Numbered from the stretch's first letter, positions 1-30,886 are shown. The stretch is DNA of 64,000 nt from Fidelibacterota bacterium (GCA_024278595.1 JAJRSW010000061.1:4225-68224), one strand, 5' to 3'. Program-made: numbers and translations. Notes: generated by a model from the letters alone, not told the origin.

Positions 1-403
1 GAGTATTGATCATGATAGCTGGATTTAACAGTGTAACAAAACGATGCACCCGGGTATAAATATCCCAGGGCAGGAAACTGACCCCATCAAATCTATCATC
101 GTGAGCTGCTTTGTAGTAGATCGTGGCTGAAGTGAAGGTCTTAAATATATAAACATCCAGCTTGCGGACTCGGGCAAGGAGTGGTTTAATTTGCTCAAAT
201 TCGCCAGCCGAAGCCGCATGAAACCAAACAATGGGTTTTGGGTCAAGTTTTACTTTATTGTTAAAACTTAGTAAAGCTGCTTTTATGTCTCGTTGACCGG
301 ACAGGCTTCCACCAAGTTTTTCATTAAAGTAGGCTACTAGCCAGGCAACCGGCAGCGCAAGTAACAGTAAGAAGTTATAGATTAAGTAGAAGAAATAATT
401 CAT
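1..403 (-). CDS. waaA: 3-deoxy-D-manno-octulosonic acid (Kdo) transferase WaaA/KdtA, N-terminal part; the gene continues beyond the window start
   Basis: The minus-strand translation starts MNYFFYLIYNFLLLLALPV... and contains WFHAASAGEFEQIKPLL, the N-terminal WaaA/KdtA motif (cf. E. coli HSVSVGETLAA). The ATG at 401-403 overlaps the TGA of the upstream gene (ATGA coupling). Confidence 0.75.
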   Translation of the reverse strand, partial: MNYFFYLIYNFLLLLALPVAWLVAYFNEKLGGSLSGQRDIKAALLSFNNKVKLDPKPIVWFHAASAGEFEQIKPLLARVRKLDVYIFKTFTSATIYYKAAHDDRFDGVSFLPWDIYTRVHRFVTLLNPAIMINT

Positions 404-900
404 TTATCCTGGGCGGCGATAATCAGATCTGCAAATTCACGGAAAGCACCATCGCCACCGACCCGATCCAGCAGAATGTCAGGTTTTAGAATATGAAAGG
501 CAGGTGTACTGGCTGGTGAGGCGGTTAGTCCTGCAACCTGCATCACAATATAATCATTAACATCATCTCCGATATAGGCCACCTGATCAGGTGTCAGGTC
601 ATATTTTTCCAACAGTGTTTCAAAAACGATCAGTTTGTCTTTGATCCCCAGGAAGACATCATCAAGTTTTAACTTTTTAGCCCTGGCAGCGACGGAGGGT
701 GAGTCTTCACCAGAAATCATTGCCGTAGGTATTCCAACCTTATTTAGGAGATAGGTAGCCATTCCATCATAGGTGCTGAAGGCCTTCATAACTTCCCCCT
801 CAGCGTTATAATACATTTTGGCATCTGTCCAGACCCCGTCAATATCGGTAACAACCAATTTTATTTTGCCGGCTTTGGCCTTCAGCTCAGCTGAGATCAT
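400..900 (-). CDS. KdsC-family HAD phosphatase (Kdo-8-P / Kdn-9-P phosphatase family)
   Basis: The motif VVTDIDGVWTD (HAD motif I) and the rest of the sequence match the YrbI/KdsC family (~165 aa). The gene sits immediately downstream of a NeuB-family synthase. Confidence 0.8.
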   Translation of the reverse strand: MISAELKAKAGKIKLVVTDIDGVWTDAKMYYNAEGEVMKAFSTYDGMATYLLNKVGIPTAMISGEDSPSVAARAKKLKLDDVFLGIKDKLIVFETLLEKYDLTPDQVAYIGDDVNDYIVMQVAGLTASPASTPAFHILKPDILLDRVGGDGAFREFADLIIAAQDK

Positions 901-951
901 ACAAGTCTCCTATCACTTCGTCTGGTCAAAACTGTTTAACAGATCAGCCTG

Positions 952-2001
952 TCACCAGTTTATATCTTCATCCTTCAAAACTATATCTGCGGTAATATCA
1001 TGACACACGCTTTTCCCGATCAGCTGATCCAGGCGTGCCGGGGATATACCGTTTCCAGGACCCTTCGTAGTTAACATGTCAGCACTGAGAATTGTGTTGG
1101 CTGAAATATCAACGGCCGAGACAACACTCTTGGCCAGTTTTTTAAAAACCGGCGCTTCAGATTTCTGGATTTGTTTTTTAATGCCACCCATGGCTAATTC
1201 AATGTGACGAATATCCCGGACAAGTTTAGCAAATCCGCTGGGCTCCAATGAGGCTGCATGATCACCGCCTTTCATGGTCCGATCTAGTGTAAAATGGCGC
1301 TCCACGATCTGCGCGCCCAGCGCCACGGCGGCTTCCGTAATGGCTATCCCTAATTCATGACCAGAATAGCCGATGACCGCTGAAGGGAACCTGGTCTTGA
1401 AGGTGCTGATCACACCCAGATTGATCTCCTCAAAAGCAGATGGGTAGGTGGATGTGCACTGGAGGATAGCGAGCGGAATATTATATGATTCCAGCACTTT
1501 AACTGCGGTTTCCACCATGTCCATATCAGCCATGCCTGTGGAGAGGATCATGGGCTTACCCTGCTTGGCTGTGTGGACTAGCAAGGGGATATTGGTCAGA
1601 TCTGCTGAAGCCATTTTATAAAAAGGGATCCCCAGATCATTTAAAAAGTCAATACTTTCTTCGTCCCATCCAGATGCGATGAAGTCAATGCCAAGGTTTG
1701 TGGCAAACTTGAATAACTCCTGGTAATCTATTTCAGATAGCTCTAGGGCCCGCTTGTGGTCCCCGTAGGTTTTACCAAAAGAATTTCGGTTTTCATAGGG
1801 CATGTCAAGCCCCTCCTGAGTCAGGATTCGTTCAATGCAGCGTTTTTGGAATTTAACCGCACTGGCACCCGCTGCCCTTGCCTCAGAAATAAGTTTTTTA
1901 GCAATCTCAACATCACCTTGATGATTGATCCCTATTTCAGCAATTATATAAGTTGGTTCCTTATCTCCAACGATCTGTGAACCAAGCTGTAGAGTTGGCA
2001 A
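952..2001 (-). CDS. NeuB-family nonulosonic acid (N-acylneuraminate / Kdn-9-phosphate) synthase with a C-terminal SAF domain
   Basis: The N-terminal motifs IIAEIGINHQGD and ARAAGASAVKFQKR are typical of the NeuB/sialic acid synthase TIM barrel. The C-terminal ~60 aa are antifreeze-like/SAF. Length 349 aa. Confidence 0.85.
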   Translation of the reverse strand: MPTLQLGSQIVGDKEPTYIIAEIGINHQGDVEIAKKLISEARAAGASAVKFQKRCIERILTQEGLDMPYENRNSFGKTYGDHKRALELSEIDYQELFKFATNLGIDFIASGWDEESIDFLNDLGIPFYKMASADLTNIPLLVHTAKQGKPMILSTGMADMDMVETAVKVLESYNIPLAILQCTSTYPSAFEEINLGVISTFKTRFPSAVIGYSGHELGIAITEAAVALGAQIVERHFTLDRTMKGGDHAASLEPSGFAKLVRDIRHIELAMGGIKKQIQKSEAPVFKKLAKSVVSAVDISANTILSADMLTTKGPGNGISPARLDQLIGKSVCHDITADIVLKDEDINW

Positions 2002-2033
2002 TGTAAACCTCCATCAAAAGAACAATAAATGAT

Positions 2034-2720
2034 CTAATTTTTTAGTTTTGCAGCGATCTCTTCCAATAAAGTGAAATCACTTGAGTTATCAATTTCCGGG
2101 CTGTATTCCTCAGGAAATACCGTGTACCCGATGCGACCACCGAGACGATTAGCTGTTTTTTGAAAATGTTGTTTGGTAAAGATATAAACGGATCCATTTT
2201 CAACATAGCGGGTATCAGCAACAGTCATATCCTGACGTCGGGGTCGATTCAGATAATCATACTGAGCTTCAGCCTTGAGACCGTTAAGCTTCCAGAAAAA
2301 TCGATGGGTCGCTGAGAGGCTGAGCAGGGAATCAAATTCCTGATCCTGAAAATGTTTTAAAGCCTGATCTAATGAACCGATGGGGCGTAAAGGACTGGTA
2401 GCTTGCAGAAGTACGATGATATCTGGAGACAATTCTTTCGTTTGCCACCATGAAAGCGCGTGGGCGACGGCCGATTCAGTAGTTGCTGTATCGCCGGAAA
2501 TATTTTTTGGGCGTGGAATGATGCTGGCACCTGCTTGTCGAGCTATATCCGTGATCAGCTTATCATCAGTAGATACGAAGACACCGGTCACAAAGCTTGA
2601 ATTTAGGGCATATTCAATGGAGTGGGTAATCAGCGGTTGCCCCAGAAACGGTTTGATGTTCTTTTGAGGCACACCTTTAGAGCCCCCCCGAGCAGGTATT
2701 ATGCAGAAAATTTCCATCAT
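2034..2720 (-). CDS. Acylneuraminate (CMP-nonulosonic acid) cytidylyltransferase, NeuA/KdsB superfamily
   Basis: The N-terminus IIPARGGSKGVPQKNI is the NeuA-type CTP-binding motif. The protein is 228 aa and lies between the NeuB-like gene and the glycan operons. Confidence 0.8.
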   Translation of the reverse strand: MMEIFCIIPARGGSKGVPQKNIKPFLGQPLITHSIEYALNSSFVTGVFVSTDDKLITDIARQAGASIIPRPKNISGDTATTESAVAHALSWWQTKELSPDIIVLLQATSPLRPIGSLDQALKHFQDQEFDSLLSLSATHRFFWKLNGLKAEAQYDYLNRPRRQDMTVADTRYVENGSVYIFTKQHFQKTANRLGGRIGYTVFPEEYSPEIDNSSDFTLLEEIAAKLKN

Positions 2721-2911
2721 ACAATATAGGAGGCTTGCTACGTTTCGCAGACCACAATTTAAGTTTCCGTCTACGTTCCCTGGAAATTGCTTTGTGACAT
2801 TTGGGAGCTTGGAAGGTCGATGAATGCTGGAGTTTAGTGAATTTCCTGGACATGGAGAGGATAAACTCGGGTGCCTCTATTCTGTTTTTTGAATTCTGGT
2901 CCAGGATTATG

Positions 2912-3784
2912 TTCACCGCCATGGAGCGCTATGTACTGATCATTTTAATTATGGGTCTGTTCGGTGTGAGCTTTGGGGCTCCCCTGGCTCGCTTTGTCCC
3001 TGAACTGGCGGCCCTGACGATTGCCTTTTGGCGCATGGCCGGGTCTTCAGCTTTGCTCTGGACCTCCGCTTCTGTCAAAGCTCAGGGAAGCTTGAGCCGT
3101 AAAAAAATTCCCATCATTAGCATAGCTGGTATATTTCTGGCTCTGCACTTTGCCTGTTTTTATTCGGCAGTCAAGGTGGCACCGATTGCCAATGCCACTC
3201 TCTTTGCCACGCTGGCACCGGTGTTTACCCTGATCTATGAGCGATTCATATTAAAGCGAAAACTACCCCTGGGAGCCCTGGTTGGATTGTGGCTGGCGAT
3301 TGGTGGCGCAGTGCTGGTGCAGGGAGGAGCCATACAATTTGGAACAGGAGAATCACTTGGAAATCTACTGGCCCTGGCCAGCTCCGTATTTATGGCTGTC
3401 GTGCTCATCATTGCCGAGCAAATACGGAGAACAACTACCACGATCATGTTCACACGTTGGCTATATTTTTTTGCCGCAGTGACGCTTGGTGCGATTGCTG
3501 TGGTAGCGGGTGTCGAATTAGGATTTGGCCAACCGGATCTCAAATGGATCCTTGCTCTGATCATTCTGCCGACCCTTATCGGTCATAATAGCATGAATTA
3601 TGCAGTTAGATATTTACGCCCTACCATTGTTGGATCCATGCCCTTTGGGGAACCGATCCTGGCAACCATACTGGCCTGGTTCCTATTTGGCGAATCAATT
3701 GGTTTACACGTAGTGTTCGGTGGCGGTGTTACCTTAACCGGTTTAGTGATTCTTACCTTAAAAAGAGGGTCAGGGGACCAATAG
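2912..3784 (+). CDS. DMT-superfamily (EamA-like) transporter; the start codon is uncertain and the longest ORF begins at 2801
   Basis: About 290 aa with ten hydrophobic segments arranged as two EamA-like halves. It is the only plus-strand gene inside the glycan locus. Confidence 0.6.
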   Translation, partial: FTAMERYVLIILIMGLFGVSFGAPLARFVPELAALTIAFWRMAGSSALLWTSASVKAQGSLSRKKIPIISIAGIFLALHFACFYSAVKVAPIANATLFATLAPVFTLIYERFILKRKLPLGALVGLWLAIGGAVLVQGGAIQFGTGESLGNLLALASSVFMAVVLIIAEQIRRTTTTIMFTRWLYFFAAVTLGAIAVVAGVELGFGQPDLKWILALIILPTLIGHNSMNYAVRYLRPTIVGSMPFGEPILATILAWFLFGESIGLHVVFGGGVTLTGLVILTLKRGSGDQ

Positions 3785-4402
3785 CTGAAGCTTGCCGTCC
3801 TGAATCAGTTCTTCAATAAAAGCTTTTTCACCACTCACATCATGTTTACCGGCCTTTCGGATAACCCCCTTATCCTTTAGCCAGCGCATAGCCGGAGAGT
3901 CGAAATAGTGACTGGTGCTGCCGACAAAGAAATCAAAACCATGCAAGGTTACATCCAAACCCAGTAGATAGAAAAAATAGATGGTGAAGAAGCCGGTGGT
4001 AGGACGATCAATACCACATTCACTTTCCATGTTTTGCATCATATTCAGGGGCAACATGAAGTACTTGTCAGTCCCTAGGCGACGTTGAATACGATCCATA
4101 ATAGTTTCATCTTTGTGCTCCAGAACCACCGGCGGGATCATCACTAAGATGTTTTCAGGGAGCTCAAAACGTTTCTTCAGTCCCTGGTTGGCACCATTCA
4201 CCCAGATATCAGTGCGTGAGCCGACTCTGGACTCCAAACCCGTAGTTACAAAGTTATTGATACGTACAACCTGGTCAAAATTATCGATACGCTGACCCAA
4301 ATCATAAGTAGCAGCACTGGGTCCGTTTCCCATGATCAACAGGGAATTATTTACGAGTGAATGATATGATTCAGGCAGGTCTTGTAGATTAAACCCGGAC
4401 AT
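3770..4402 (-). CDS. GT42-family (Cst-I/Cst-II-like) sialyltransferase-like glycosyltransferase
   Basis: LIMGNGPSAATYDLGQRIDNFDQVVRINNF aligns with the Campylobacter Cst-II N-terminus IIAGNGPSLKEIDYSRLPNDFDVFRCNQF. PTTGFF...YLLGLDVTLHGFDFF matches Cst-II ITSGVY...LGYKEIYLSGIDFY. Confidence 0.7.
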   Translation of the reverse strand: MSGFNLQDLPESYHSLVNNSLLIMGNGPSAATYDLGQRIDNFDQVVRINNFVTTGLESRVGSRTDIWVNGANQGLKKRFELPENILVMIPPVVLEHKDETIMDRIQRRLGTDKYFMLPLNMMQNMESECGIDRPTTGFFTIYFFYLLGLDVTLHGFDFFVGSTSHYFDSPAMRWLKDKGVIRKAGKHDVSGEKAFIEELIQDGKLQLLVP

Positions 4403-4405
4403 GTT

Positions 4406-5491
4406 TTATCCCGTCTTGTAGATAGATCCATCATCAAGAGCGACATTCCACTCCTTTACCGGCGTGCGCCAATCTTGGCCATATTTTACCTCGATAAATC
4501 CTACAGGGTTAGCCGGGACCGGGACCTCTTTACCGTAAAATGTCAGGCTCTCTGGAGCATTCAGATATTCTTTACGATGATAGGCGTTGCGATTCCAGAC
4601 GACATACTTATATACCGTTTCATCAGTATCGGGGAGCTTGCCCTCATAGTATACGAACAGGTCAAGACAGAGCTTCTCTTTGAAGATCAAATTTTTGCGG
4701 GGGTAGATCTTTAAGACCCGGTATTTACCCAATTGCCAGATCTTATTTGTCTTTGGGAAATCTTTCACGCTCACATAAAATCTGCGGCGTAAGTGACGGA
4801 TCAAACGTTTCATCTGGGCTTCAGATTCGAATTTCATTCCAAAATCAAGATCATGATCCCAGGGAATGAGCTTTTGATCACGCAGGGCTCCCAACAGTGT
4901 ACCTCCTTCAACCCAAAAGCTGATTCCAGCTGAATTCATGATGCTTATATTTTCATGCATGAATTGAACCGCCTGCTTTTCAGCTCTTGAATCAAAGGCT
5001 ACCGGGTGTTTCTTGTAAAAGCCGGCCATGAGTTCTTTTTTGTAATGCTCGATAAACTCATTCAAATTTGGGGGTAAAAGGATGTCGATGCCATCCAGAG
5101 TAATTCTCTGAAGGGAGGTTTGATGGAGATCTAAATTTGAAAAAAAAGTATCGTGACCCCCCAAAAATGCTAAATGACCATTTTCCACTGGCCGAAGAAG
5201 TGTCAAACTTACATGTTCAGGGTCTTTTTGAAAGAGACCAGTCTTAGATCTTAGTTTATAATATCGGTGGCCTTCGTTGGTCTTTGGCTTCAGAACGATC
5301 CTGTGCCGGATAAGGCTTAGGGCAAGGCGGAACAGTTGCCCACGACTTAGCGGGAATAGGTAGAGCCTGAGATTAGGGGAATATTTGCAAAGAGTTCCCT
5401 CGCTTAACCCAACCAGGGAATCAGCCCCCACGATATAGGGGATCTGATGATCATTCAGGGTGGCAAGCACCTGTTTGAAAAAGGGAATCAC
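4406..5491 (-). CDS. LicD-family phosphotransferase (fukutin/LicD nucleotidyltransferase fold), apparently with a degenerate tandem N-terminal LicD-like half
   Basis: The C-terminal half carries ISFWVEGGTLLGALRDQKLIPWDHDLDFGM, the LicD signature with a DxD. The N-terminal half carries IPYIVGADSLVGLSEG, which resembles a second degraded copy. Confidence 0.65.
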   Translation of the reverse strand: MIPFFKQVLATLNDHQIPYIVGADSLVGLSEGTLCKYSPNLRLYLFPLSRGQLFRLALSLIRHRIVLKPKTNEGHRYYKLRSKTGLFQKDPEHVSLTLLRPVENGHLAFLGGHDTFFSNLDLHQTSLQRITLDGIDILLPPNLNEFIEHYKKELMAGFYKKHPVAFDSRAEKQAVQFMHENISIMNSAGISFWVEGGTLLGALRDQKLIPWDHDLDFGMKFESEAQMKRLIRHLRRRFYVSVKDFPKTNKIWQLGKYRVLKIYPRKNLIFKEKLCLDLFVYYEGKLPDTDETVYKYVVWNRNAYHRKEYLNAPESLTFYGKEVPVPANPVGFIEVKYGQDWRTPVKEWNVALDDGSIYKTG

Positions 5492-6234
5492 GCTTTTCCC
5501 AGCTCCCGATTTGCTTGTTCAAGGTCTGCAGTGAAATCGACCTCAATACACAAAATATCAGAGACATCAACGGGGTAGATCTTAAAGCCCTCATCGATGG
5601 CGTGTTCAATCCCCCGCTCAAAATAATCATCATTCTCACAGCGATCCAACATTCGAATGAATAAGGAAATATCACCAGCAATGATCTTATTGACACCCAC
5701 TGATTCACCCAGAGCATGGTTAACGGTCTTGGAGACAGCATTGATAGCACCGTCAGCAGCCACAGTGTATTTGACCTCTTCATCCCCGACTGATGCCATG
5801 TTCACCGCCATACAGGAGGTCTCGCAATTGATAACTCGTGTTAAAACCTGAGGGTCAAAGACCACATCACCGTTAAGCCAGATGACATCATGGGTTCTAA
5901 CTTTTTTCAAGGCTTTCAGTAGGCTTTTTGAGGTGTTGGTACGATCATAGACATTGTTAAAAATATAGGTGAGTTCAGAGAACTCCTCCATGATCAGATC
6001 CTTTTTAAAGCCGACCACAACCAGGATATCGTCTACAGAAATAATTTGCTGAAGGGCGGTGACTTGCCTCTCCATAATCATTTCGCCGTTGGAAAGTTGG
6101 GTGAGGGGTTTCGGGCGCGGGTTGCCAAGTCGTGAACCAATACCGGCTGCCAGAATGATCGCTTTCACTGGATTACCTCTTTTTTGTAATCCCATACCCG
6201 GGATCAGTTTCAATAGTTCAGGTCGACCCAACAA
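5488..6234 (-). CDS. LicC-like sugar/alcohol-phosphate nucleotidyl(cytidylyl)transferase
   Basis: KAIILAAGIGSRLG...PKPL is the NTP-transferase G-loop, closest to LicC (MKAIILAAGLGTRL). The start may instead be the internal Met at 6195. The stop overlaps the LicD start. Confidence 0.65.
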   Translation of the reverse strand: MLGRPELLKLIPGMGLQKRGNPVKAIILAAGIGSRLGNPRPKPLTQLSNGEMIMERQVTALQQIISVDDILVVVGFKKDLIMEEFSELTYIFNNVYDRTNTSKSLLKALKKVRTHDVIWLNGDVVFDPQVLTRVINCETSCMAVNMASVGDEEVKYTVAADGAINAVSKTVNHALGESVGVNKIIAGDISLFIRMLDRCENDDYFERGIEHAIDEGFKIYPVDVSDILCIEVDFTADLEQANRELGKA

Positions 6235-6292
6235 AAATCGACAGGGTGATTATATAGCAATACAGGGTGCAAACACAAGTGTTTCCATGAGG

Positions 6293-7357
6293 TTAATCAG
6301 GCAGTTGCCGGACAGTATTATTGCTTAAGAAATGATCGATCATGTGGGTGATGCGCTGGCAGGAGTGCCCGTCTGCTTTCCAGCAGCTTTGCTCTGCCCA
6401 GAATTGCCGTTCCTGTTTGAATTGGTCGGGATGTTCCAGGGCAGCCCCAATACTTTCTTCCAATTCATCTGGCAGAGCTGTGTGACCCATGATCCAATCT
6501 TCATCAATGTAGGGAATTTTAAATGGCCGGGTGGCACGGTCAGTATTTTGCTCCCGGGCAATGATCGTATCCGATACCCAGATCCCGGACCGGCGTCTCT
6601 CTTGCTCGGGAAAACAGCCGGGATAATGGGGTAGTATTAATTGGATCACGGGCTTGTCAAGTATGGCCGCTTCTGCCAGCACAGAAGAAACGTCACTCAC
6701 TACCACATCAGCTAAATGGAGAAAACGGTTTATATTTCCTCCATCAGGCTTTACTGCTCCGTATTTCCTGGCCAGTGAATAATCGGCTGAATGAGGGACA
6801 ATTAAAACATTGTCCAGTCTTGAAAGGTGTTTGGCATTGTGAATTCCGGCCGCTGGATTTTTCCTCCCACCCCATGATGGAGCAAAGAGAGTGATGGGTT
6901 TATCTGGATCCAGGGAGAATTGTTGACCTAAGCTGGCCTTGTCGATGGTCTGGTTGACCAGTTCATCAACTTTGGGGTAGCCGCCCAAAAGACCCCGGCT
7001 AAAGTCTGGATTAATGGCTTCCATCTTGCGTTTAAAAACTTCCCCGGGATAGAATAGTAGAGCAGCTCGCTGAAAGAAATCATACTTGTAGGTATAGTAT
7101 TTCATGGGACTGAGCCCATGTTCGATATAAATGAATTGACCCTGCCACCCACATTTTTCCAACCGTACCAACGGTTGGTCATAGGCGATAACAATTGTGG
7201 ATGAGATAGCTTTTAAGAAGGCACGATTTCTAAAACAATTACGATGAACTTTGGTAAACCGGACTGCCCATCCAACCTGTTTCATGTACTGGAATAGTGG
7301 TAACAGGCTGGCGTAACCCTTGGTGGTTGAATAGACCAGATCAAGCGTATGGGACAT
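6293..7357 (-). CDS. TagB/TagF-family CDP-glycerol/CDP-ribitol : glycosyl polyol-phosphotransferase
   Basis: TLFAPSWGG matches the ILYAPTWR motif. VVSDVSSVLAEAAILDKPVI matches TDYSS...LDKPII of Glyphos_transf (PF04464). Confidence 0.65.
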   Translation of the reverse strand: MSHTLDLVYSTTKGYASLLPLFQYMKQVGWAVRFTKVHRNCFRNRAFLKAISSTIVIAYDQPLVRLEKCGWQGQFIYIEHGLSPMKYYTYKYDFFQRAALLFYPGEVFKRKMEAINPDFSRGLLGGYPKVDELVNQTIDKASLGQQFSLDPDKPITLFAPSWGGRKNPAAGIHNAKHLSRLDNVLIVPHSADYSLARKYGAVKPDGGNINRFLHLADVVVSDVSSVLAEAAILDKPVIQLILPHYPGCFPEQERRRSGIWVSDTIIAREQNTDRATRPFKIPYIDEDWIMGHTALPDELEESIGAALEHPDQFKQERQFWAEQSCWKADGHSCQRITHMIDHFLSNNTVRQLPD

Positions 7358-7369
7358 GGGTTTACCTAA

Positions 7370-8062
7370 TCACTGATGTTGTTTAACTTCCATTTTTCCC
7401 AGGAAGATCTCAGCGATCTTTAGATCATCCGAGTGGGTGATCTTCATGGTTTCAGGTGCACCGGGCACAAAGCCTAATTTTGCGGAAGCATGGGTCTGTT
7501 TCACCAGCCCCATTTCATCAGTATCAAGCTTACCTGTGGCATGGGCCTGGCGCAGGATATTAAGTTTGAAACATTGCGGTGTCTGAACAATCCTCAAGGT
7601 ATCACGATCCAGATTATCAAAGCCCTGACTGGTTATTTGGACCATGGAATCGGTGGGTGTGATCGCCGGAGCCACACCATCGTATGTGGTTAGTTTTTGA
7701 AGGCATGCGTCAATTATGTAAGCCGGAATGAGTGGCCGGGCTGCGTCATGTACCAGAACGAACTGCGTATTTTTTGAACAAGCACTCAAGCCATTGGATA
7801 CTGAATCCTGGCGGGTCGGCCCTCCTGGAACCACCTGGCATTCGGGGTAACTTGAGGTGACAGATCGAAGATAAACTGCAGATGTCACTATAATGACCTT
7901 ATGGATCTCCGGGTGTTCCAGAAAGGTCTGGACCGAATAGCTTAAGATTTCCCGGCCATTCAGTTTGAGAAATTGTTTGGGGATCTGTGAGGCTAATCTA
8001 CTGCCACTTCCCGCAGCTACTATAATTGCAGTATTCAAGGTGTTTATCATATCCTTTAACAT
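7370..8062 (-). CDS. IspD/TarI-family cytidylyltransferase; in this context likely CDP-polyol (e.g. CDP-ribitol) synthase rather than housekeeping IspD
   Basis: AIIVAAGSGSRLASQIPKQFL is the IspD/TarI signature. The protein is 230 aa and is the first gene of the operon ending in the GT42 gene. Confidence 0.7.
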   Translation of the reverse strand: MLKDMINTLNTAIIVAAGSGSRLASQIPKQFLKLNGREILSYSVQTFLEHPEIHKVIIVTSAVYLRSVTSSYPECQVVPGGPTRQDSVSNGLSACSKNTQFVLVHDAARPLIPAYIIDACLQKLTTYDGVAPAITPTDSMVQITSQGFDNLDRDTLRIVQTPQCFKLNILRQAHATGKLDTDEMGLVKQTHASAKLGFVPGAPETMKITHSDDLKIAEIFLGKMEVKQHQ

Positions 8063-8245: not shown

Positions 8246-10606
8246 ATGATCAAAAAAAATAATTTCAATCCGCCCAGTCCCGTTGAAAGTTACTTTCTCA
8301 AACGCTCCAAGCTGGATTTTCGCTATGCACCTGATGAGAAGATTCCCGTAGTTCAGGTAAACAATTTCCCGCTGTTGGGTCAATTGACGGCGCTGAGGTT
8401 TCTTGAGTGGGTGCAAAATAATCCTGAAGGCGTAACTTCCCTGCCCACTGGCAAGACACCGGAATACTTCATTCGTTATGTAGCACATTATCTGACGACC
8501 TGGGATACCCGCAAAACTCAAGCAATGCTTGAGCAGGTTGGAATTAGAAATAATGAAAAACCAAGTCTTCACGATCTGCAGTTTGTCCAGATCGATGAAT
8601 TCTTCCCGATTCCAAGCACCCAGCAGAACAGCTTTTATGACTATGTCATGAAATATTATATCAAGGGTTTTGGGATAAATGAAGATCGAGCCCAACTCAT
8701 TGATGCCGCCAGGATAGATTATCCGAAGGGCAAAACATTTCAAGAGATATTCCCGAATTTGGTGGTTGATCTGGGTTTACGTTTCAGCCAGCCAAAAAAC
8801 GGACAGGGGCGACTTCAAAAAGAAGCGATTGAACGAGTCGATGAATACTGTACAGAATATGAACGACGCATTCGCGCCAAGGGAGGCATTGGCTTCTTCC
8901 TGGGAGGGATCGGGCCGGATGGCCATATAGCCTTCAATGTGCGTGGTTCTGACTATTTTTCTACGACCCGCCTAACCCCTACAAATTTTGAAACTCAGGC
9001 TGCGGCAGCCGCTGATCTAGGGGGGATAGAGGTCTCCCAGAAACGGCTGGTGATCACCATTGGCCTGCAGACCATTACTTTCAATCCAGAAGCAACCGCT
9101 TTGATTTTTGCTGCCGGAGAAGCCAAGGCGGGGATAGTAGCCGCTGCTGTACAGGAAAAAGCGGCCAATATCCACCCAGCCGGTGTCCTGCACGCGATGC
9201 CCAATGCCCGGTTCTATATTACAGCCGGTGCAGCTGTGTTTCTCGATCGGCGTGAAGTTGAAGCAATGAATGCGGTTGCAGAAGTAGCTGAAAATTTGGT
9301 GGATCAGCACTTGATCACGCTCTCCATGCGCTCCCGGACTCCGATCCGGGAGATTTCAACCGAGCAGATAGCAGCTAAACAAGTTCCAGCCACAGCTTTG
9401 GCGCGTAGTCGAGACTCCCTGCCACATATCAAACAGCGTATCTTTGATGACCTGGTGGCAAAACTGGAGCGTGGTCTTGCCCCGGTTGAGGATGAGGTGT
9501 TTTTCCATACTGCCCCGCATCATGATGATATCATGTTGGGATACCTGGCCCATATCGTTCATCTCGTGCGAAATCCACGGAATAAGCACCATTTTGCCTA
9601 CATGACCAGCGGGTTCAATGCGGTCACCAATGAATTCGTTAAGGATCAGATCCAGCACGCCCTGGCCTACATGGAGACCGAGCAATTTCTACATTTAAAG
9701 GCTGAAAACTATTTTGATGCAGATTATGAAATGGGCGCTCAGCGGGATATCTATACCTATCTGGATGGGATCGCCAGTCATAGTACCGTGCATAAATACA
9801 AAGGATCCTCCAGGCGGTTGATCCGTAACCTGCTCATGCTTCACCCCCAACTGGATCTTGATTCACTCCCCCGAAAAATGCTCAGGATCATCGATTATTT
9901 AGATTCTCGGTATCCTGGTCAAAAAGATGACCCGCTGATGCAAAACTTAAAGGGACGGATTCGGGAGTGGGAAGCAGATCTGGTCTGGGCCAATTACGGG
10001 ACCTCCCTGGAAAATGTGCACCACCTGAGATTAGGTTTTTATAAGGGTGATATCTTTACTGAAGACCCAACCCTGGATCGAGATGTTCAACCAATTCTTG
10101 AATATATGGAACGGATCAAGCCTACTGTGGTCACCCTGGCGTTGGACCCGGAAGCCAGTGGTCCAGATACTCATTATAAGGTCATGCAGGCGATCGCTGC
10201 TGCTATCCGCCTTTACAAACAGAAATATCCTAAAGCAGCGTTGCGTGTGTGGGGTTATCGAAATGTCTGGTTTAAATTTCAGCCCACTGATGCCAATATA
10301 TTTGTGCCGGTCTCTGTGAATTCCATGGCCATCATGGAAGATACTTTTCGGCAATGCTTCCAATCTCAAGTCGATGCCCCCTTTCCCAGTTTTGAATACA
10401 ATGGACCCTTCTCCGGACTGGCTCAGGCCATTCAAGTTCAACAACACCAGGATCTGAAACGGGTCATGGGACGTGATTTCTGGTATGGTCACGATCATCC
10501 ACGTATCCGGGCTGCGCGAGGTCTGGTGTACTTGAAGGAAATGGACCTGGATGAATTCTTTACCCGGGTTACTGAATTACAGAAAGTGACTGAATCCCAG
10601 GGTTAA
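8246..10606 (+). CDS. nagB: Long-form glucosamine-6-phosphate deaminase: N-terminal NagB domain fused to a C-terminal LmbE/PIG-L-like (putative deacetylase) domain
   Basis: The N-terminus has LPTGKTP and GGIGPDGHIAFN, the NagB signatures. The C-terminal half has TAPHHDDIMLGYLAHI, which resembles the PIG-L AHPDDE motif. Length 786 aa. Confidence 0.7.
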   Translation: MIKKNNFNPPSPVESYFLKRSKLDFRYAPDEKIPVVQVNNFPLLGQLTALRFLEWVQNNPEGVTSLPTGKTPEYFIRYVAHYLTTWDTRKTQAMLEQVGIRNNEKPSLHDLQFVQIDEFFPIPSTQQNSFYDYVMKYYIKGFGINEDRAQLIDAARIDYPKGKTFQEIFPNLVVDLGLRFSQPKNGQGRLQKEAIERVDEYCTEYERRIRAKGGIGFFLGGIGPDGHIAFNVRGSDYFSTTRLTPTNFETQAAAAADLGGIEVSQKRLVITIGLQTITFNPEATALIFAAGEAKAGIVAAAVQEKAANIHPAGVLHAMPNARFYITAGAAVFLDRREVEAMNAVAEVAENLVDQHLITLSMRSRTPIREISTEQIAAKQVPATALARSRDSLPHIKQRIFDDLVAKLERGLAPVEDEVFFHTAPHHDDIMLGYLAHIVHLVRNPRNKHHFAYMTSGFNAVTNEFVKDQIQHALAYMETEQFLHLKAENYFDADYEMGAQRDIYTYLDGIASHSTVHKYKGSSRRLIRNLLMLHPQLDLDSLPRKMLRIIDYLDSRYPGQKDDPLMQNLKGRIREWEADLVWANYGTSLENVHHLRLGFYKGDIFTEDPTLDRDVQPILEYMERIKPTVVTLALDPEASGPDTHYKVMQAIAAAIRLYKQKYPKAALRVWGYRNVWFKFQPTDANIFVPVSVNSMAIMEDTFRQCFQSQVDAPFPSFEYNGPFSGLAQAIQVQQHQDLKRVMGRDFWYGHDHPRIRAARGLVYLKEMDLDEFFTRVTELQKVTESQG

Positions 10607-10702
10607 CTTCACGATCAGGCCCAGTTGCCAATTGTCTGATACCATTTGAAGAATAGATCGTGTGAAACACAGCCCGGCAGGTGGGCAACTGAGAACTCGA
10701 AT

Positions 10703-11245: not shown

Positions 11246-11335
11246 AGAATATTAAGGGAGTCAAATTTAGACACGAATTGCCCAAATTAGCATAAATATA
11301 GCGCTACTATCACCAAGGAGTAGTGCTCAGGTCGT

Positions 11336-20480: not shown

Positions 20481-21461
20481 GTGACCAAACCAAACAATGA
20501 TGTACAAAAACTAACTGAAATGGTAGCCGCTTTTGATCGATTAAAAGCTGAGCTTGCCAAGGCGATCGTCGGACAAGATTCAGTGATAGAGCAATTGATC
20601 ATTGCCCTGTTGGCTCGCGGTCACGCACTATTGGTCGGTGTCCCCGGCCTGGCAAAGACCCTGCTGATAAAGAGTCTATCCGAAGTCCTGGACCTAAGTT
20701 TTTCAAGGATTCAGTTCACCCCCGATCTCATGCCCTCTGATATTACGGGGACCGATATCATTGAAGAGGATCATACAACTGGAAAACGGGAGTTTCGCTT
20801 TGTCAAAGGCCCCGTATTTGCCAATATCGTACTGGCTGACGAGATCAATCGGACACCCCCCAAAACTCAGGCGGCCCTTTTAGAAGCTATGCAGGAGCAT
20901 CGGGTGACAGCCGGGGTCGAGAGCTATGTACTGGATGAGCCATTTTTTGTATTGGCCACCCAAAACCCCATTGAACAAGAGGGGACCTACCCCTTGCCTG
21001 AGGCTCAGCTGGATCGATTCATGTTCAATTTACGCGTAGAATACCCCAGCCGAGATGAAGAACGAAGGATCGTCAGCGAGACCACCTCAGGAGCGACAGT
21101 AAGCCTGAAAAAGATCCTGGACCAACCAGCAATTTTGGAGTATCAGGAACTGATCAGGCGGGTTCCTGTGGCGGACAATGTCATCGATTATGCGGTTGAT
21201 CTGGTGAGTAAGACTCGCCCTGCCGAAGATGATGCACCGGATTACATAAAAAAATGGGTTGGCTGGGGTGCCGGTCCCCGGGCTTCTCAATATTTAATCC
21301 TGGGCGCCAAAACCCGGGCAGCCATGGCTGGCAATCCAACCCCTTCAATTGATGATGTGAAGGCCGTCGCTTTACCAGTACTACGACATCGGGTCCTGAC
21401 CAATTTCAATGCAGAGGCCGATGGGGTCACAGTGGATGAGATCATTAAGAAACTGCTGTAA
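20481..21461 (+). CDS. MoxR-family AAA+ ATPase (AAA_3)
   Basis: LLVGVPGLAKT Walker A, DEINRTPPKTQAALLEAMQE and the rest of the sequence match MoxR/RavA-like ATPases. GTG start with a GGAGGA Shine-Dalgarno site. Confidence 0.9.
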   Translation: MTKPNNDVQKLTEMVAAFDRLKAELAKAIVGQDSVIEQLIIALLARGHALLVGVPGLAKTLLIKSLSEVLDLSFSRIQFTPDLMPSDITGTDIIEEDHTTGKREFRFVKGPVFANIVLADEINRTPPKTQAALLEAMQEHRVTAGVESYVLDEPFFVLATQNPIEQEGTYPLPEAQLDRFMFNLRVEYPSRDEERRIVSETTSGATVSLKKILDQPAILEYQELIRRVPVADNVIDYAVDLVSKTRPAEDDAPDYIKKWVGWGAGPRASQYLILGAKTRAAMAGNPTPSIDDVKAVALPVLRHRVLTNFNAEADGVTVDEIIKKLL

Positions 21462-21597
21462 TAGTTATCGTTGCCACAAAGGCGCCAAGACTCGAAGGAT
21501 CACAATCCCCAAGATTTTTCTTTGTGACTTAGTGTCTTTGTGGCGAAAAGAATGTAACGAAATAGGTGGGTTGCATTAAAAAGAAAAGGATATTGAT

Positions 21598-24480: not shown

Positions 24481-24586
24481 TTGAAGATTGACCATTCCCA
24501 CCTCGTCAGACTGAGCGGAGTAGCAGTATATAGATTTGTGGCAGAACTAAAAAATCTAAATCCTGAAAGGCTGAAATAAGCAAAAA

Positions 24587-25483
24587 TTGAACACTGATAA
24601 ACGAAAATATCTGAACCCCCAAACCCTGGCCACCCTGGCCAATATGCAGCTCAGGGCACGCATGGTGGTGGAGGGCTTCATTGTGGGCCTGCATAAGAGT
24701 CCCTATCACGGATTTTCGGTGGAGTTTGCTGAACACCGCGCCTACGGCCCTGGTGATAATCTGCGCTATCTGGATTGGCGACTTTATGGCAAAACGGATC
24801 GTTTTTATGTGAAACAGTTCGAGGAAGAGACCAATCTAAAGGCGCATCTCATGTTGGATATGTCAAAATCAATGGCTTATGGGTCTGCTGACATCACAAA
24901 GTTGCAGTATGGCAGTTATCTCTCCGCCGCCTTGACCTATTTACTATTACGGCAACAGGATGCTGTTGGCCTGACCCTCTTTGATACTGAGATCCGAACT
25001 CATATCAGGCCCTCTTCCAGACCATCCATGTTAACCAATATATTGTCGCATCTGGAGCGTGTGGAGCCTGGGGAAGAAACCGCTATTGGGCATAGTCTGC
25101 ACCACCTGGCAGATCGCATTCATCGCCGGGGGCTGGTGATCATCATTTCTGATATGCTGGATGATCTGGATAATATTTTGAATGGGCTCAAGCATTTTCG
25201 TCACGACCGCCATGAAGTGCTGGTATTCCACATTCTGGATCCCCGTGAAGTAGATTTTGCCTTTCATGCCCAGGCTAAATTCAAAGATATGGAATCAGGT
25301 GAGATCATGGCCACGGAGCCCTGGCATATCCAACGGGATTATCAGAATGCCGTTAAACAATTCCGGTCCAATCTAGGTGCTAGTTGCCGGGAACAGCGTG
25401 TGGACTATGTGCCCCTGACCACCGATCAATCGCTTGATGTGGCGCTATTGGCCTATCTGAACAAGCGCCATTCCGTCCGGTAG
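24587..25483 (+). CDS. DUF58 (vWA-fold) protein, the usual partner of MoxR ATPases
   Basis: LQLRARMVVEGFIVGLHKSPYHGFSVEFAEHRAYGPGDNLRYLDWR is the DUF58 signature. TTG start at 24587. Confidence 0.8.
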   Translation: MNTDKRKYLNPQTLATLANMQLRARMVVEGFIVGLHKSPYHGFSVEFAEHRAYGPGDNLRYLDWRLYGKTDRFYVKQFEEETNLKAHLMLDMSKSMAYGSADITKLQYGSYLSAALTYLLLRQQDAVGLTLFDTEIRTHIRPSSRPSMLTNILSHLERVEPGEETAIGHSLHHLADRIHRRGLVIIISDMLDDLDNILNGLKHFRHDRHEVLVFHILDPREVDFAFHAQAKFKDMESGEIMATEPWHIQRDYQNAVKQFRSNLGASCREQRVDYVPLTTDQSLDVALLAYLNKRHSVR

Positions 25484-30619: not shown

Positions 30620-30886
30620 CAACCACCTCTACAGAATAGGTACATTTATTTTTCAGGTATTCGCGTGAGTTGAGCGGAAGAGCCGTATGAGGAAAATTTT
30701 CAAGTACGGTTCTGTGAGAGGCCTGTGCCATCAGGTTGTCTGGCCTACTCCCCATTAGTGAGGCTGGAGGATCGGTTCAGAAAACATCATTCCGACCGAT
30801 TTCAAGTATTGCCGGTAAAATGAAAACAGTTTTATAAATCACTGTGCTAAATACTTTATCACATCGAAAAATTAAGGGAGAACAAC

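What the first reader, a model, noticed from the sequence alone, without database searches (positions are those of the whole stretch)
1..2720. kdtA cotranscribed with a NeuB-family synthase, a KdsC-family phosphatase and a NeuA-family CMP-transferase: a candidate Kdn (or other nonulosonic acid) pathway wired to the LPS inner-core Kdo transferase
Four minus-strand genes run NeuA-like, NeuB-like, HAD phosphatase, WaaA with 30-50-bp gaps and an ATGA overlap. The canonical Kdo pathway uses KdsA and KdsB, neither of which is present here. A NeuB-type synthase paired with a KdsC-type phosphatase implies a nonulosonic acid 9-phosphate intermediate, as in the Bacteroides thetaiotaomicron Kdn-9-P synthase/phosphatase pair. 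Direct linkage to waaA suggests either incorporation of a nine-carbon ulosonic acid into LPS, or a non-orthologous replacement of KdsA/KdsB.
Basis: partly seen in the sequence, partly recalled or inferred. Interest (0 to 1): 0.65.

Follow-up and report, generated by a model that had tools for sequence, protein, structure and literature searches.

The report
Kdn pathway coupled to WaaA-like transferase
A marine Marinimicrobia-type bacterium carries a four-gene operon that most likely makes the activated nine-carbon sugar CMP-Kdn by the animal-like 9-phosphate route and ends in a special clade of the lipid-A Kdo-transferase family, a pairing that recurs in several bacterial phyla and points to an undescribed way of decorating the outer-membrane lipopolysaccharide.

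Summary
On the minus strand lie NeuA-like (2034-2720), NeuB-like (952-2001), KdsC-type HAD phosphatase (400-900) and the N-terminus of a GT30 WaaA-like gene (1-403). The gaps are 32 and 51 bp, with an ATGA overlap.

The synthase has the features of 9-phosphate synthases (NANS/Kdn-9-P synthase), not ManNAc-using NeuB. The phosphatase matches Bacteroides Kdn-9-P phosphatase BT1713, including Glu56 and Lys67, better than any KdsC.

The link to GT30 is not a chance neighbourhood:
- 59 of 80 synthase-anchored genome loci have synthase-HAD-GT30 in that order.
- 62 of 64 GT30-anchored metagenome loci have the HAD directly upstream.
- These loci carry at least eight phylum-level labels, mostly FCB-group.
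- Chloroflexota and archaeal loci lack GT30.

The linked GT30s form one clade inside the FCB-type WaaA radiation. Three stand-alone relatives that I looked up sit in contexts without nonulosonic-acid genes.

Replacement of KdsA/KdsB is disfavoured, because a true KdsA lies beside the module in a Gemmatimonadota contig.

Best reading (confidence about 0.5): a mobile CMP-Kdn module whose own GT30 puts Kdn on a lipid-A-proximal acceptor.

Unresolved: whether these genomes also hold a second, ordinary WaaA.

The parts
2034..2720 (-). NeuA-like CMP-nonulosonate (probably CMP-Kdn) synthetase, 228 aa; first gene of the operon
   Evidence: PF02348, 98.8 bits. Far below the cut-offs of the PseF and KdsB equivalogs. 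38% identical over 221 aa to the characterised Prymnesium parvum CMP-Kdn synthetase (sequence from the PMC6200933 supplement).
952..2001 (-). NeuB-family synthase of the 9-phosphate type (candidate Kdn-9-P synthase), 349 aa, TTG start
   Evidence: PF03102 270.6 bits plus SAF. NeuB_NnaB equivalog 340.6 bits, below the 399.65 cut-off. Against N. meningitidis NeuB it has Asp at E134 and Gly at R314, and it carries KFQKR, SGWDEES and TLDRTMKGGDHAASLEP. 38% identical to the Man-6-P-specific P. parvum Kdn-9-P synthetase.
400..900 (-). HAD-IIIA phosphatase of the KdsC/YrbI fold, Kdn-9-P-phosphatase type, 166 aa
   Evidence: Best NCBIfam hit is the KDN-9-P phosphatase NF058599, 163 bits against a cut-off of 180. 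Best PDB hit is BT1713 (3E81), 123 bits, ahead of KdsC structures at 101 bits or less and B. thetaiotaomicron KDO8PP 4HGN at 62 bits. Glu56, Lys67 and Asn106 of BT1713 are conserved here and in all 71 homologues in related loci. E. coli KdsC has Arg, Thr and Ile at those positions.
1..403 (-). N-terminal 134 aa of a GT30 (WaaA-family) glycosyltransferase. It starts at the ATG at 403-401, overlaps the HAD stop (ATGA) and runs off the window.
   Evidence: PF04413. Full length is 419 aa in L001, which differs at one residue within the shared 134 aa. It has a hydrophobic N-terminal helix and the HAASAGE motif, equivalent to Aquifex S28/G30/E31. An AF2 model of family member P0179 (pLDDT 94) matches WaaA 2XCI best, E 6e-22. 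It is a member of the module-linked clade.
2801..3784 (+). EamA/DMT-family transporter, divergent from the operon. Associated part, role unknown.
   Evidence: PF00892, 99 bits. Conserved at this position in the closest loci: L002-L014, L016, L017, L037 and L075.
3770..4402 (-). GT29-like (sialyltransferase-family) protein, 210 aa; a second candidate user of the CMP-sugar
   Evidence: PF00777, 60.3 bits, covering profile positions 59-271 of 272. No NCBIfam model. Recurs beside NeuA or GT30 in many loci, including the compact islands L093, L059, L040, L150 and L166.
4406..8062 (-). Upstream glycan genes: LicD-family (4406-5491), NTP_transf_3 nucleotidyltransferase (5488-6234), TagF-like (6293-7357) and IspD-type cytidylyltransferase (7370-8062). 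Associated; probably further decoration with polyol- or choline-phosphate.
   Evidence: Pfam and NCBIfam. IspD passes the ispD domain cut-off (198.7 against 181.3), so it may be the housekeeping enzyme. The set co-occurs with the module in roughly a third of related loci, by my reading of the tblastn table, and in L087, L091 and L094.

Best explanation
The operon is a self-contained installation module for a nine-carbon ulosonic acid, most probably Kdn.

1. The NeuB-like enzyme condenses PEP with a 6-phosphosugar. Man-6-P is the likely substrate, because no ManNAc-forming gene accompanies the module. The product would be Kdn-9-P.
2. The KdsC-fold HAD phosphatase removes the 9-phosphate.
3. The NeuA-like enzyme makes CMP-Kdn.
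4. The translationally coupled, membrane-anchored GT30 enzyme is a derived clade of the FCB-type WaaA family. It transfers the sugar at the inner face of the cytoplasmic membrane to a lipid-A-proximal acceptor, either lipid A precursor or Kdo-lipid A, before MsbA-type export.
5. The neighbouring GT29-like, LicD and TagF-like enzymes then extend or decorate the glycan.

Shown: family assignments, diagnostic residues, gene order and its conservation.
Inferred: substrates, donor and acceptor of the GT30, and cotranscription.

My step-wise probabilities:
- 9-phosphate nonulosonic acid pathway: 0.85.
- The product is Kdn rather than Neu5Ac: 0.65.
- The GT30 works with this pathway: 0.75.
- The GT30 donor is the module's CMP-sugar: 0.5.
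- The acceptor is lipid A or inner core: 0.45.
For: Pathway:
- The HAD is closest to BT1713 and keeps Glu56 and Lys67, in all 71 homologues.
- The synthase has E134D, has lost R314, and carries the NANS-type loop. PMC8208679 describes these as marks of the ManNAc-6-P-using eukaryotic enzyme.
- Three divergent synthase lineages found next to the GT30 all share the Kdn-9-P-synthase motifs.
- The synthase and NeuA are each 38% identical to the characterised P. parvum Kdn enzymes.
- No Epimerase_2 or ManNAc-forming gene appears in the module contexts I examined.

Coupling to GT30:
- 59 of 80 synthase-anchored loci have strict synthase-HAD-GT30 order. The median HAD-GT30 gap is about 5 bp, and 14 loci have a 4-bp overlap.
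- 62 of 64 GT30-anchored metagenome loci have the HAD directly upstream.
- All 5 contig look-ups anchored on the GT30 show the module genes beside it.
- Compact islands occur, such as GT30-GT29-NeuB-NeuA-HAD beside heme genes (L093).
- The linked GT30s form one clade with mixed phylum labels.
- Three stand-alone relatives lack the module. Their contexts are panBC/mtnA, a heptosyltransferase-family neighbour, and DUF4292/peptidase M23.

LPS connection:
- The fold and the G30/E31/E276 residues of WaaA are kept.
- In several genomes the module lies between LpxL-Sua5-MsbA and LpxA-LpxC/FabZ-LpxD-Skp-BamA. In L065 it directly follows an MsbA-like gene.
- None of the Chloroflexota or archaeal loci with the same synthase-HAD pair has a GT30.
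- The Flavobacteriaceae-labelled copy has only 8 homologue clusters at 60% identity or more, none of which carries a source name, among 5.8 billion proteins. It therefore cannot be that family's housekeeping WaaA.
Against: - No biochemical data exist for any member.
- I could not show a second, ordinary WaaA in any genome that carries the module. No held locus has two GT30 regions, and whole genomes could not be scanned.
- The residues that first looked diagnostic are shared with stand-alone FCB-type WaaAs. These are PHE for PRH at Aquifex R212 and Arg/Lys at E98. The Ser at N273 also occurs in stand-alone Chlorobiota-type enzymes. Nothing in the sequence therefore proves a changed donor.
- In the window's clade the GT30 is followed by mtnA, as is a stand-alone GT30 in L177. 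This hints that it may sit in the ancestral waaA position.
- The clade tree is a quick NJ tree without support values, and the taxon labels come from MAG binning.
- Kdn versus Neu5Ac rests on the absence of ManNAc genes near the module, not on a specificity determinant.
Confidence: 0.5

Rival explanations
1. The GT30 is simply this lineage's housekeeping WaaA. It transfers Kdo from CMP-Kdo made by kdsA/kdsB elsewhere. It lies next to the Kdn genes because all are LPS-core genes, and the CMP-Kdn is used by the GT29-like enzyme instead.
For: - The GT30 clade is nested in the FCB-type WaaA radiation and shares its motifs.
- Only one GT30 is seen per locus.
- The module sits in an LpxL-MsbA...LpxA/C/D-BamA super-locus.
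- A true KdsA lies beside it in L065.
- GT30-mtnA synteny is shared with a stand-alone GT30.
- A GT29-like candidate transferase is available in the window.
Against: - A housekeeping gene would not be expected to keep a 0-16 bp or overlapping junction with a Kdn-9-P-type phosphatase in 62 of 64 anchored loci across phyla.
- Nor would it be expected to travel in compact five-gene islands.
- Nor to show mixed phylum labels in its tree.
- The Flavobacteriaceae-labelled copies have almost no close relatives, although that family is heavily sequenced.
- Some module loci have no GT29 nearby, for example L089 and L090.
Confidence: 0.25
2. The linked GT30 is the only lipid-A ulosonic-acid transferase in these Marinimicrobia. 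It puts Kdn directly on lipid IVA, instead of Kdo or in addition to it, so the inner core starts with a nine-carbon sugar.
For: - The four genes parallel KdsA, KdsC, KdsB and WaaA step for step.
- The module sits in the LPS super-locus.
- No KdsA, KdsB, KdsD or second GT30 appears in the 64-kb window or in any Marinimicrobia locus held.
- The GT30 may occupy the ancestral waaA position next to mtnA.
Against: - Absence from about ±10 kb says little about a 2-3 Mb genome.
- KdsA coexists with the module in Gemmatimonadota.
- As far as I know, Kdo or Ko is found in all characterised LPS (background knowledge).
- The module occurs as an add-on island in Flavobacteriaceae-labelled contigs.
Confidence: 0.1
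3. The product is CMP-Neu5Ac made by the animal-like route (ManNAc-6-P, then Neu5Ac-9-P, then Neu5Ac), not Kdn. The rest of the model is unchanged.
For: - Human NANS makes both Neu5Ac-9-P and Kdn-9-P (Km table in PMC6200933).
- The window synthase keeps a SAF domain, which the Man-6-P-specific P. parvum enzyme lacks.
- From memory, BT1713 also hydrolyses Neu5Ac-9-P.
Against: - No UDP-GlcNAc 2-epimerase, ManNAc kinase or NanE-type gene lies in the module contexts I examined.
- Arg314, which PMC8208679 reports as essential for bacterial NeuB and which, from memory, contacts the N-acetyl group of ManNAc, is Gly here and is invariant in the aligned close homologues.
- Man-6-P is a ubiquitous metabolite, so Kdn needs no extra genes.
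Confidence: 0.2
4. Non-orthologous replacement: the NeuB-like, HAD and NeuA-like enzymes make CMP-Kdo from Ara-5-P for an ordinary WaaA.
For: The steps correspond formally to KdsA, KdsC and KdsB, and those genes are absent from the window.
Against: - The same synthase-HAD pair occurs in Chloroflexota and archaea, which have no LPS.
- The HAD carries the Kdn-9-P-phosphatase residues, not those of KdsC.
- KdsA lies next to the module in L065.
- The characterised relative shows no activity on Ara-5-P (PMC6200933, Table 1).
Confidence: 0.03
5. An ordinary bacterial sialic-acid capsule or O-antigen pathway (NeuB using ManNAc), with an unrelated kdsC-waaA pair that happens to lie downstream.
For: The annotation of homologues as 'N-acetylneuraminate synthase family protein'.
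Against: - There is no NeuC.
- The synthase falls below the NeuB equivalog cut-off, has E134D and lacks R314.
- The HAD travels with the synthase even where no GT30 exists.
- The HAD is much closer to BT1713 than to any KdsC.
Confidence: 0.02

Closest known systems
Bacteroides thetaiotaomicron Kdn pathway (BT1714 Kdn-9-P synthase, BT1713 Kdn-9-P phosphatase; Wang et al. 2008, cited in PMC6200933)
   Same: The same logic: a NeuB-family synthase using a 6-phosphosugar, followed by a KdsC-fold HAD phosphatase. The window phosphatase is most similar to BT1713 (123 bits) and keeps Glu56 and Lys67.
   Different: From memory, the Bacteroides genes lie in a capsule locus. No GT30 partner is described for them. 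I could not retrieve BT1714 for a direct comparison. The phosphatase scores 163 bits, below the 180-bit equivalog cut-off.
[quoted passage not shown]
   Same: 38% identity to each window counterpart. The motifs KFQKR, WD and T.DRT.KG.DHAASLEP are shared. The enzymes are characterised as strictly Man-6-P- and Kdn-specific.
   Different: It is eukaryotic. Its synthase lacks the SAF domain, no phosphatase homologue was found, and no transferase is known.
WaaA/KdtA, the lipid IVA Kdo transferase (GT30; Aquifex aeolicus 2XCI/2XCU, E. coli)
   Same: PF04413, the GT-B fold, an N-terminal membrane helix, the S28/G30/E31 motif and the ribose-binding Glu276 are conserved.
   Different: Only 22-29% identity to E. 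coli WaaA and 48 bits to Aquifex WaaA. It has Arg at Glu98, His at Arg212 and Ser at Asn273, though these changes also occur in stand-alone FCB-type GT30s. It is almost always fused in an operon to a Kdn-9-P-type phosphatase, which is not described for WaaA.
Stand-alone FCB-type GT30 (Ignavibacteriales, Chlorobiota, Calditrichota; P0410, P0430, P0460, P0480)
   Same: These are the closest sequence relatives, scoring 260-330 bits to the family profile. They share the motifs GEFEQ, RHDxWPN, GDTRFDQ and VPHE.
   Different: They are found without NulO genes, next to a heptosyltransferase-family gene, panBC/mtnA or DUF4292/M23. Most have Asn, not Ser, in G.HN..EP. The linked proteins form a separate clade.
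Acinetobacter baumannii KdoT (PMC12856342)
   Same: A precedent for a second, dedicated CMP-ulosonic-acid transferase that extends Kdo-lipid A alongside WaaA.
   Different: KdoT is an ELM1-like GT-B enzyme, not a GT30. It transfers Kdo and is not linked to a sugar-synthesis module.
Animal sialic acid pathway (NANS, NANP, CMAS, GT29 sialyltransferases)
   Same: Synthesis through a 9-phosphate intermediate. The synthase shares E134D and the loss of R314 (PMC8208679). A GT29-like gene lies in the locus. NeuA and HAD are fused in a Chloroflexia relative, as in CMAS.
   Different: The phosphatase here is KdsC-fold, not NANP-type. The context is bacterial and cytoplasmic, and a GT30 partner is present.

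Membership tests
NeuB family (nonulosonic acid synthases) | PF03102 catalytic domain, with or without a C-terminal SAF domain | tested here: met
   270.6 bits against a cut-off of 22.1; SAF 29.5 bits.
Bacterial Neu5Ac synthase NeuB (ManNAc-using; TIGR03569 equivalog) | Score above the curated cut-off, with Glu134 and Arg314 (N. meningitidis numbering) | tested here: not met
   340.6 bits, below the 399.65 cut-off. Asp at 134 and Gly at 314. Both are invariant in the 26 aligned close homologues.
9-phosphate synthases (NANS / Kdn-9-P synthase type) | Use of ManNAc-6-P or Man-6-P. Sequence marks are E134D, loss of R314 and the alpha2-beta2 loop (PMC8208679). | tested here: inconclusive
   The sequence marks are present, and identity to the P. 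parvum enzyme is 38%. Overall similarity to NmNeuB is about the same (34%, 181 bits). Substrate use cannot be tested here.
KdsC/YrbI HAD-IIIA phosphatase subfamily (TIGR01670) | Score above the subfamily cut-off and the DxD catalytic motif | tested here: met
   142.3 bits against 106.95. Asp10 and Asp12 equivalents are conserved.
Kdn-9-P phosphatase (NF058599; BT1713 type) | Equivalog cut-off of 180 bits, with Glu56 and Lys67 (the residues mutated in PDB 4HGQ and 4HGR) | tested here: inconclusive
   163.1 bits, just below the cut-off. Glu56, Lys67 and Asn106 are conserved here and in all 71 relatives. BT1713 is the best PDB hit.
Kdo-8-P phosphatase KdsC (NF007019 equivalog) | Equivalog cut-off of 208 bits, with Arg at the BT1713 position 56 | tested here: not met
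   134 bits. It has Glu, not Arg. B. thetaiotaomicron KDO8PP 4HGN scores only 62 bits.
CMP-ulosonic acid synthetases (PF02348) | The CTP_transf_3 domain | tested here: met
   98.8 bits. PseF (128 against 205.7) and the KdsB equivalogs (31-58 bits) are not met. Sugar specificity cannot be tested here.
GT30 (CAZy) / Glycos_transf_N | PF04413 N-terminal domain and a GT-B fold like WaaA | tested here: met
   101.7 bits for the full-length L001 protein. The AF2 model of clade member P0179 matches 2XCI at E 6e-22, with the next GT-B fold at 1e-12.
WaaA, lipid IVA Kdo transferase (NCBIfam NF004385-9 equivalogs) | Curated cut-offs of 363-617 bits | tested here: inconclusive
   55-141 bits for five linked proteins. 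Stand-alone FCB-type GT30s also fail, at 140-218 bits, so the cut-offs do not discriminate in these phyla.
WaaA, lipid IVA Kdo transferase | Catalytic and donor-binding residues of Aquifex WaaA: G30, E31, E98, K162, R212, N273 and E276 (PMC6286764) | tested here: inconclusive
   G30, E31 and E276 are kept, and K162 is Arg. E98 is Arg, R212 is His and N273 is Ser, all invariant in the clade. The same or similar changes occur in stand-alone FCB-type enzymes.
WaaA, lipid IVA Kdo transferase | [quoted passage not shown] | not testable with these tools
   Needs enzyme assays, complementation and whole-genome gene counts.
GT29 sialyltransferase family (neighbouring gene 3770-4402) | The PF00777 domain | tested here: met
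   60.3 bits against a cut-off of 23, covering profile positions 59-271. I did not examine the sialylmotifs individually.

The most novel reading that the evidence does not exclude
In module-bearing Marinimicrobia the linked GT30 is the only lipid-A ulosonic-acid transferase. It installs Kdn made by this operon directly on lipid IVA, replacing Kdo or alongside it. That would be the first LPS whose lipid-A-proximal sugar is a nine-carbon nonulosonic acid, made by an animal-like 9-phosphate pathway.
Probability: 0.1. Interest if true: 0.9.

Novelty: new variant of a known kind. Interest (0 to 1): 0.62.

Why it matters
Kdo is treated as the universal link between lipid A and the rest of LPS, and WaaA-family enzymes are treated as Kdo-specific. 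A WaaA-derived clade hard-wired to a Kdn/sialic-acid pathway would give the GT30 family a second donor sugar.

It would also give a concrete, clonable four- or five-gene module for putting a sialic-acid-like sugar next to lipid A. That bears on how abundant ocean bacteria (SAR406/Marinimicrobia and other FCB lineages) shape their surfaces against phages, grazers and complement-like lectins.

The bacterial combination of a NANS-type synthase, a 9-phosphatase and a GT29-like transferase is relevant to the debated origin of the eukaryotic sialylation machinery (PMC5811610, PMC8208679).

If the GT30 turns out to be an ordinary Kdo transferase, the finding reduces to a new, widespread member of the known Kdn-9-P pathway located in an LPS-core locus.

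Tried and rejected
- The exact-match look-up of the NeuB-like protein found nothing. The HAD look-up gave only a 2.2-kb MAG contig, so the window could not be extended far.
- I first read the low scores against the NCBIfam WaaA equivalogs, and NCBI names such as 'hypothetical protein', as signs of a non-WaaA function. I withdrew this. Stand-alone FCB-type GT30s also fail the cut-offs, and Bacteroides WaaA-like genes get the same generic name.
- I first read R212 to His, E98 to Arg and N273 to Ser as donor-specificity changes. I withdrew this as diagnostic, because stand-alone relatives share them.
- I tried to find kdsA, kdsB or a second waaA near the module by walking upstream of LpxL through a Sua5 homologue search. 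Only NfeD, FloA and unrelated genes turned up.
- tblastn with E. coli KdsA, KdsB, KdsD, LpxK, LpxB, LptA and LptC found nothing in the window.
- Literature searches for Kdn in the inner core, GT30 with sialic acid, or Marinimicrobia LPS/Kdo found nothing relevant. The Schmidt et al. 2012 WaaA paper is not held, so I took the residue roles from the review PMC6286764.
- Plasmid searches gave no module on a plasmid of a cultured organism.
- The sigma-70 promoter scan was at chance level and is uninformative for FCB-type promoters.
- I recalled human NANS from memory, including the M42 position tied to Kdn-9-P activity, and used it only as a lead, not as evidence.

Full report
**1. What is in the window**

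Four minus-strand ORFs occupy 1-2720:
- NeuA-like, 2034..2720.
- NeuB-like, 952..2001, with a TTG start.
- A HAD phosphatase, 400..900.
- An ORF that starts at the ATG at 403-401 and runs off the left end.

The gaps are 32 and 51 bp, each with a Shine-Dalgarno-like GGAGG or AGGAG. The last junction is an ATGA stop/start overlap. No terminator-like hairpin lies on the minus strand within the block. The promoter scan is at chance level and is not informative for this kind of organism.

Pfam and NCBIfam assign the four proteins as follows:
- CTP_transf_3.
- NeuB plus SAF.
- The KdsC/YrbI HAD-IIIA subfamily.
- Glycos_transf_N, the N-terminal domain of Kdo transferases (GT30).

A near-identical 2.2-kb MAG contig (L001, GCA_021648165.1) supplies the whole GT30, 419 aa. 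It is followed by the start of an mtnA-like gene. The best homologues of the synthase are 79-81% identical and are labelled Candidatus Marinimicrobia.

**2. The three sugar-nucleotide enzymes**

*Phosphatase.* Its best NCBIfam model is the Kdn-9-P phosphatase equivalog: 163 bits, just under the cut-off of 180. Its best solved relative is B. thetaiotaomicron BT1713 at 123 bits. That is ahead of E. coli KdsC (101 bits) and far ahead of B. thetaiotaomicron's own Kdo-8-P phosphatase 4HGN (62 bits).

Two BT1713 residues were mutated in PDB entries 4HGQ and 4HGR: Glu56 and Lys67. Both are present in the window protein, and both are present in all 71 homologues collected from related loci. E. coli KdsC has Arg and Thr at those positions.

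*Synthase.* It falls below the bacterial NeuB equivalog cut-off. Compared with N. meningitidis NeuB it has Asp for Glu134 and Gly for Arg314.

PMC8208679 reports E134D and loss of R314 as the marks of eukaryotic NanS, which uses ManNAc-6-P. It also notes the alpha2-beta2 loop as favouring the phosphorylated substrate.

That loop and several other motifs are shared with the Man-6-P-specific Prymnesium parvum Kdn-9-P synthetase (sequence from the PMC6200933 supplement). The shared motifs are KFQKR, SGWDEES and TLDRTMKGGDHAASLEP. Two other, shorter synthase lineages found next to the same GT30 clade also share them. NmNeuB does not.

*Cytidylyltransferase.* The NeuA-like protein is 38% identical to the P. 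parvum CMP-Kdn synthetase.

*Which sugar.* None of the module contexts I examined contains a gene that would make ManNAc. The simplest substrate is therefore Man-6-P and the simplest product CMP-Kdn. Neu5Ac by the same route is not excluded.

**3. Is the link to the WaaA-like gene meaningful?**

*Synthase-anchored scan.* A scan of one genome per species, using an alignment of the synthase, returned 80 loci. In 59 of them the order synthase-HAD-GT30 is strictly kept. The median HAD-GT30 gap is about 5 bp, and 14 loci have a 4-bp overlap.

The labels span these groups:
- Marinimicrobia/Neomarinimicrobiota
- Fidelibacterota
- Calditrichaceae
- Cloacimonadota
- Flavobacteriaceae
- Chitinispirillum
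- Eisenbacteria
- Gemmatimonadota

The Chloroflexota and archaeal loci have the synthase, the HAD and NeuA but no GT30.

*GT30-anchored tests.* All five contig look-ups anchored on GT30 homologues showed the module genes beside the GT30. In a metagenome scan, 62 of the 64 loci with at least 600 bp upstream have the HAD directly upstream.

*Contexts.* Some are compact islands. In L093, GT30-GT29-NeuB-NeuA-HAD lies beside heme-biosynthesis genes.

Others place the module inside an LPS/outer-membrane super-locus. On one side lie LpxL-Sua5-MsbA-like, then TagF-like, an IspD+SDR fusion, GT29, NeuA, a sulfatase-family gene, NeuB, HAD, GT30 and DUF3108. On the other strand come RseP, Dxr, LpxA, LpxC/FabZ, LpxD, Skp and BamA.

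In Gemmatimonadota locus L065 the order is kdsA and pyrG on one strand, then MsbA-like, NeuA, NeuB, HAD and GT30 on the other.

**4. What kind of GT30 is it?**

An AlphaFold model of clade member P0179 (pLDDT 94) matches Aquifex WaaA 2XCI at E 6e-22. That is ten orders of magnitude better than any other GT-B fold. The N-terminal membrane helix, the S28/G30/E31 motif and the ribose-binding Glu276 are conserved.

I first took three things as signs of a non-WaaA function:
- The low scores against the WaaA equivalogs.
- The generic NCBI names.
- Three invariant substitutions: Glu98 to Arg, Arg212 to His and Asn273 to Ser.

A profile search of 1.84 billion representatives corrected this. Just below the linked proteins lies a large set of GT30s at 260-330 bits with the same VPHE, RHDxWPN and GDTRFDQ motifs. 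They are labelled Ignavibacteriales, Chlorobiota and Calditrichota where a label exists.

These proteins also fail the equivalog cut-offs. The three I could look up stand alone, with no nonulosonic-acid genes nearby: one directly beside a heptosyltransferase-family gene, one between panBC and mtnA, and one after DUF4292 and peptidase M23. Two of them even carry the Ser.

The residue differences are therefore features of FCB-type WaaAs in general. They are not evidence of a new donor.

What remains specific is this. In a quick NJ tree all module-linked proteins form one clade inside that radiation, with phylum labels intermixed. The Flavobacteriaceae-labelled copy has only eight homologue clusters at 60% identity or more, none of which carries a source name, among 5.8 billion proteins. 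That is incompatible with it being the standard WaaA of that heavily sequenced family.

**5. Explanations**

*Best reading.* A mobile CMP-Kdn module that carries its own WaaA-derived transferase. The transferase places the sugar on a lipid-A-proximal acceptor. The GT29-like, LicD and TagF-like neighbours then elaborate the glycan.

*Main rival.* The GT30 is simply the lineage's Kdo transferase, sitting in a core-oligosaccharide operon, and the GT29-like enzyme uses the CMP-Kdn. In favour of this rival:
- The nesting of the clade within FCB-type WaaAs.
- The absence of a second GT30 in any held locus.
- The true KdsA next to the module in L065 (205 bits to KdsA structures against 54 to DAHP synthases).
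- The shared GT30-mtnA adjacency in the linked and stand-alone forms.

Against the rival are the near-universal, often overlapping junction with a Kdn-9-P-type phosphatase, the compact islands, and the mixed taxonomy.

It is disfavoured by the KdsA in L065, by the presence of the synthase-HAD pair in organisms without LPS, and by the Ara-5-P-negative relative (PMC6200933).

*Most novel reading.* Kdn instead of Kdo on lipid IVA in Marinimicrobia. It is not excluded, because I could not scan whole genomes. I give it about 0.1.

**6. Comparison with what is known, and novelty**

The sugar pathway is a new, widespread member of the Kdn-9-P route known from B. thetaiotaomicron and P. parvum.

Literature searches in the held library found nothing on three points:
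- A GT30 clade dedicated to a nonulosonic acid pathway.
- Kdn in an LPS inner core.
- LPS sugars of Marinimicrobia.

The cultured member Fidelibacter does show an outer membrane with an LPS layer (PMC11652737). The closest functional precedent for a second ulosonic-acid transferase on Kdo-lipid A is A. baumannii KdoT, which belongs to a different family (PMC12856342).

I class the finding as a new variant of a known kind, with interest 0.62. It is specific, conserved and directly testable, but the key claims about the donor and acceptor of the GT30 rest on gene context alone.

Noticed in passing
window 30678..30753 (+): Rfam group II intron domain (RF00029, 51.2 bits against a gathering score of 40). 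It lies in the gap between a 434-aa ORF with no Pfam hit (29260..30564) and a peptidase C1 gene. No reverse-transcriptase ORF is evident, so it may be an ORF-less or degraded intron.
   Followed up: no
window 3770..4402 (-): A 210-aa bacterial GT29-like (sialyltransferase-family) protein with no NCBIfam model. It recurs with the module in many FCB-group loci. Petit et al. 2018 (PMC5811610) listed only 23 bacterial GT29 sequences, 19 of them alphaproteobacterial.
   Followed up: partly
window 2801..3784 (+): An EamA/DMT-superfamily transporter, divergently transcribed from the operon and conserved at this spot in the closest Marinimicrobia loci. From memory, eukaryotic CMP-sialic acid transporters belong to the same superfamily. 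Its role here is unknown.
   Followed up: no
L070 (Chloroflexia), roughly 6800-7983: The NeuA-like cytidylyltransferase and the KdsC-type HAD domain are fused in one ORF upstream of the synthase. This recalls animal CMAS, which has a C-terminal HAD-like domain.
   Followed up: no
L001:2130-2215; L009, L015, L016 downstream of GT30; L177:11338-12378: An mtnA-like gene (PF01008) directly follows the GT30 in the window's clade, and also follows a stand-alone FCB-type GT30 in an unrelated contig. This could be an ancestral waaA-mtnA adjacency or a coincidence.
   Followed up: partly
L176 (GCA_014381685.1), 9127-20582: The same LpxL-Sua5-MsbA frame as in the module-bearing loci. Between MsbA and the sulfatase-family gene, however, lie GT4, GT2, Epimerase_2 and methyltransferase genes instead of TagF/GT29/NeuA. 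The stretch behaves as a variable surface-glycan locus.
   Followed up: no
L087, L091, L094 (between NeuA and NeuB): A 626-678-aa sulfatase-family (PF00884) protein is inserted between NeuA and the synthase in one Marinimicrobia group. From memory, EptA and LtaS belong to this family, which would fit a phospho-substituent transferase, but I did not test that. It is absent from the window.
   Followed up: no
window 8246..10606 (+): A 786-aa protein combining a glucosamine-6-phosphate deaminase-like region (NF002557, 194 bits) with a weak PIG-L deacetylase match, next to the glycan genes.
   Followed up: no
window 20481..25483 (+): A MoxR-type AAA ATPase, a 960-aa PD40-repeat protein and a DUF58/VWA protein in a row. 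From memory this resembles a Bat-like aerotolerance cluster. A SusC-like TonB receptor with a CarboxypepD_reg domain follows at 25663..27879.
   Followed up: no
P0392-P0506; plasmid hits H1-H4: Stand-alone FCB-type GT30s score only 140-218 bits against the NCBIfam WaaA equivalogs, whose cut-offs are 363-617 bits. The GT30 homologues found on Bacteroides and Parabacteroides records are annotated merely as 'glycosyltransferase N-terminal domain-containing protein'. Current curated models seem to under-call this enzyme in those lineages.
   Followed up: partly
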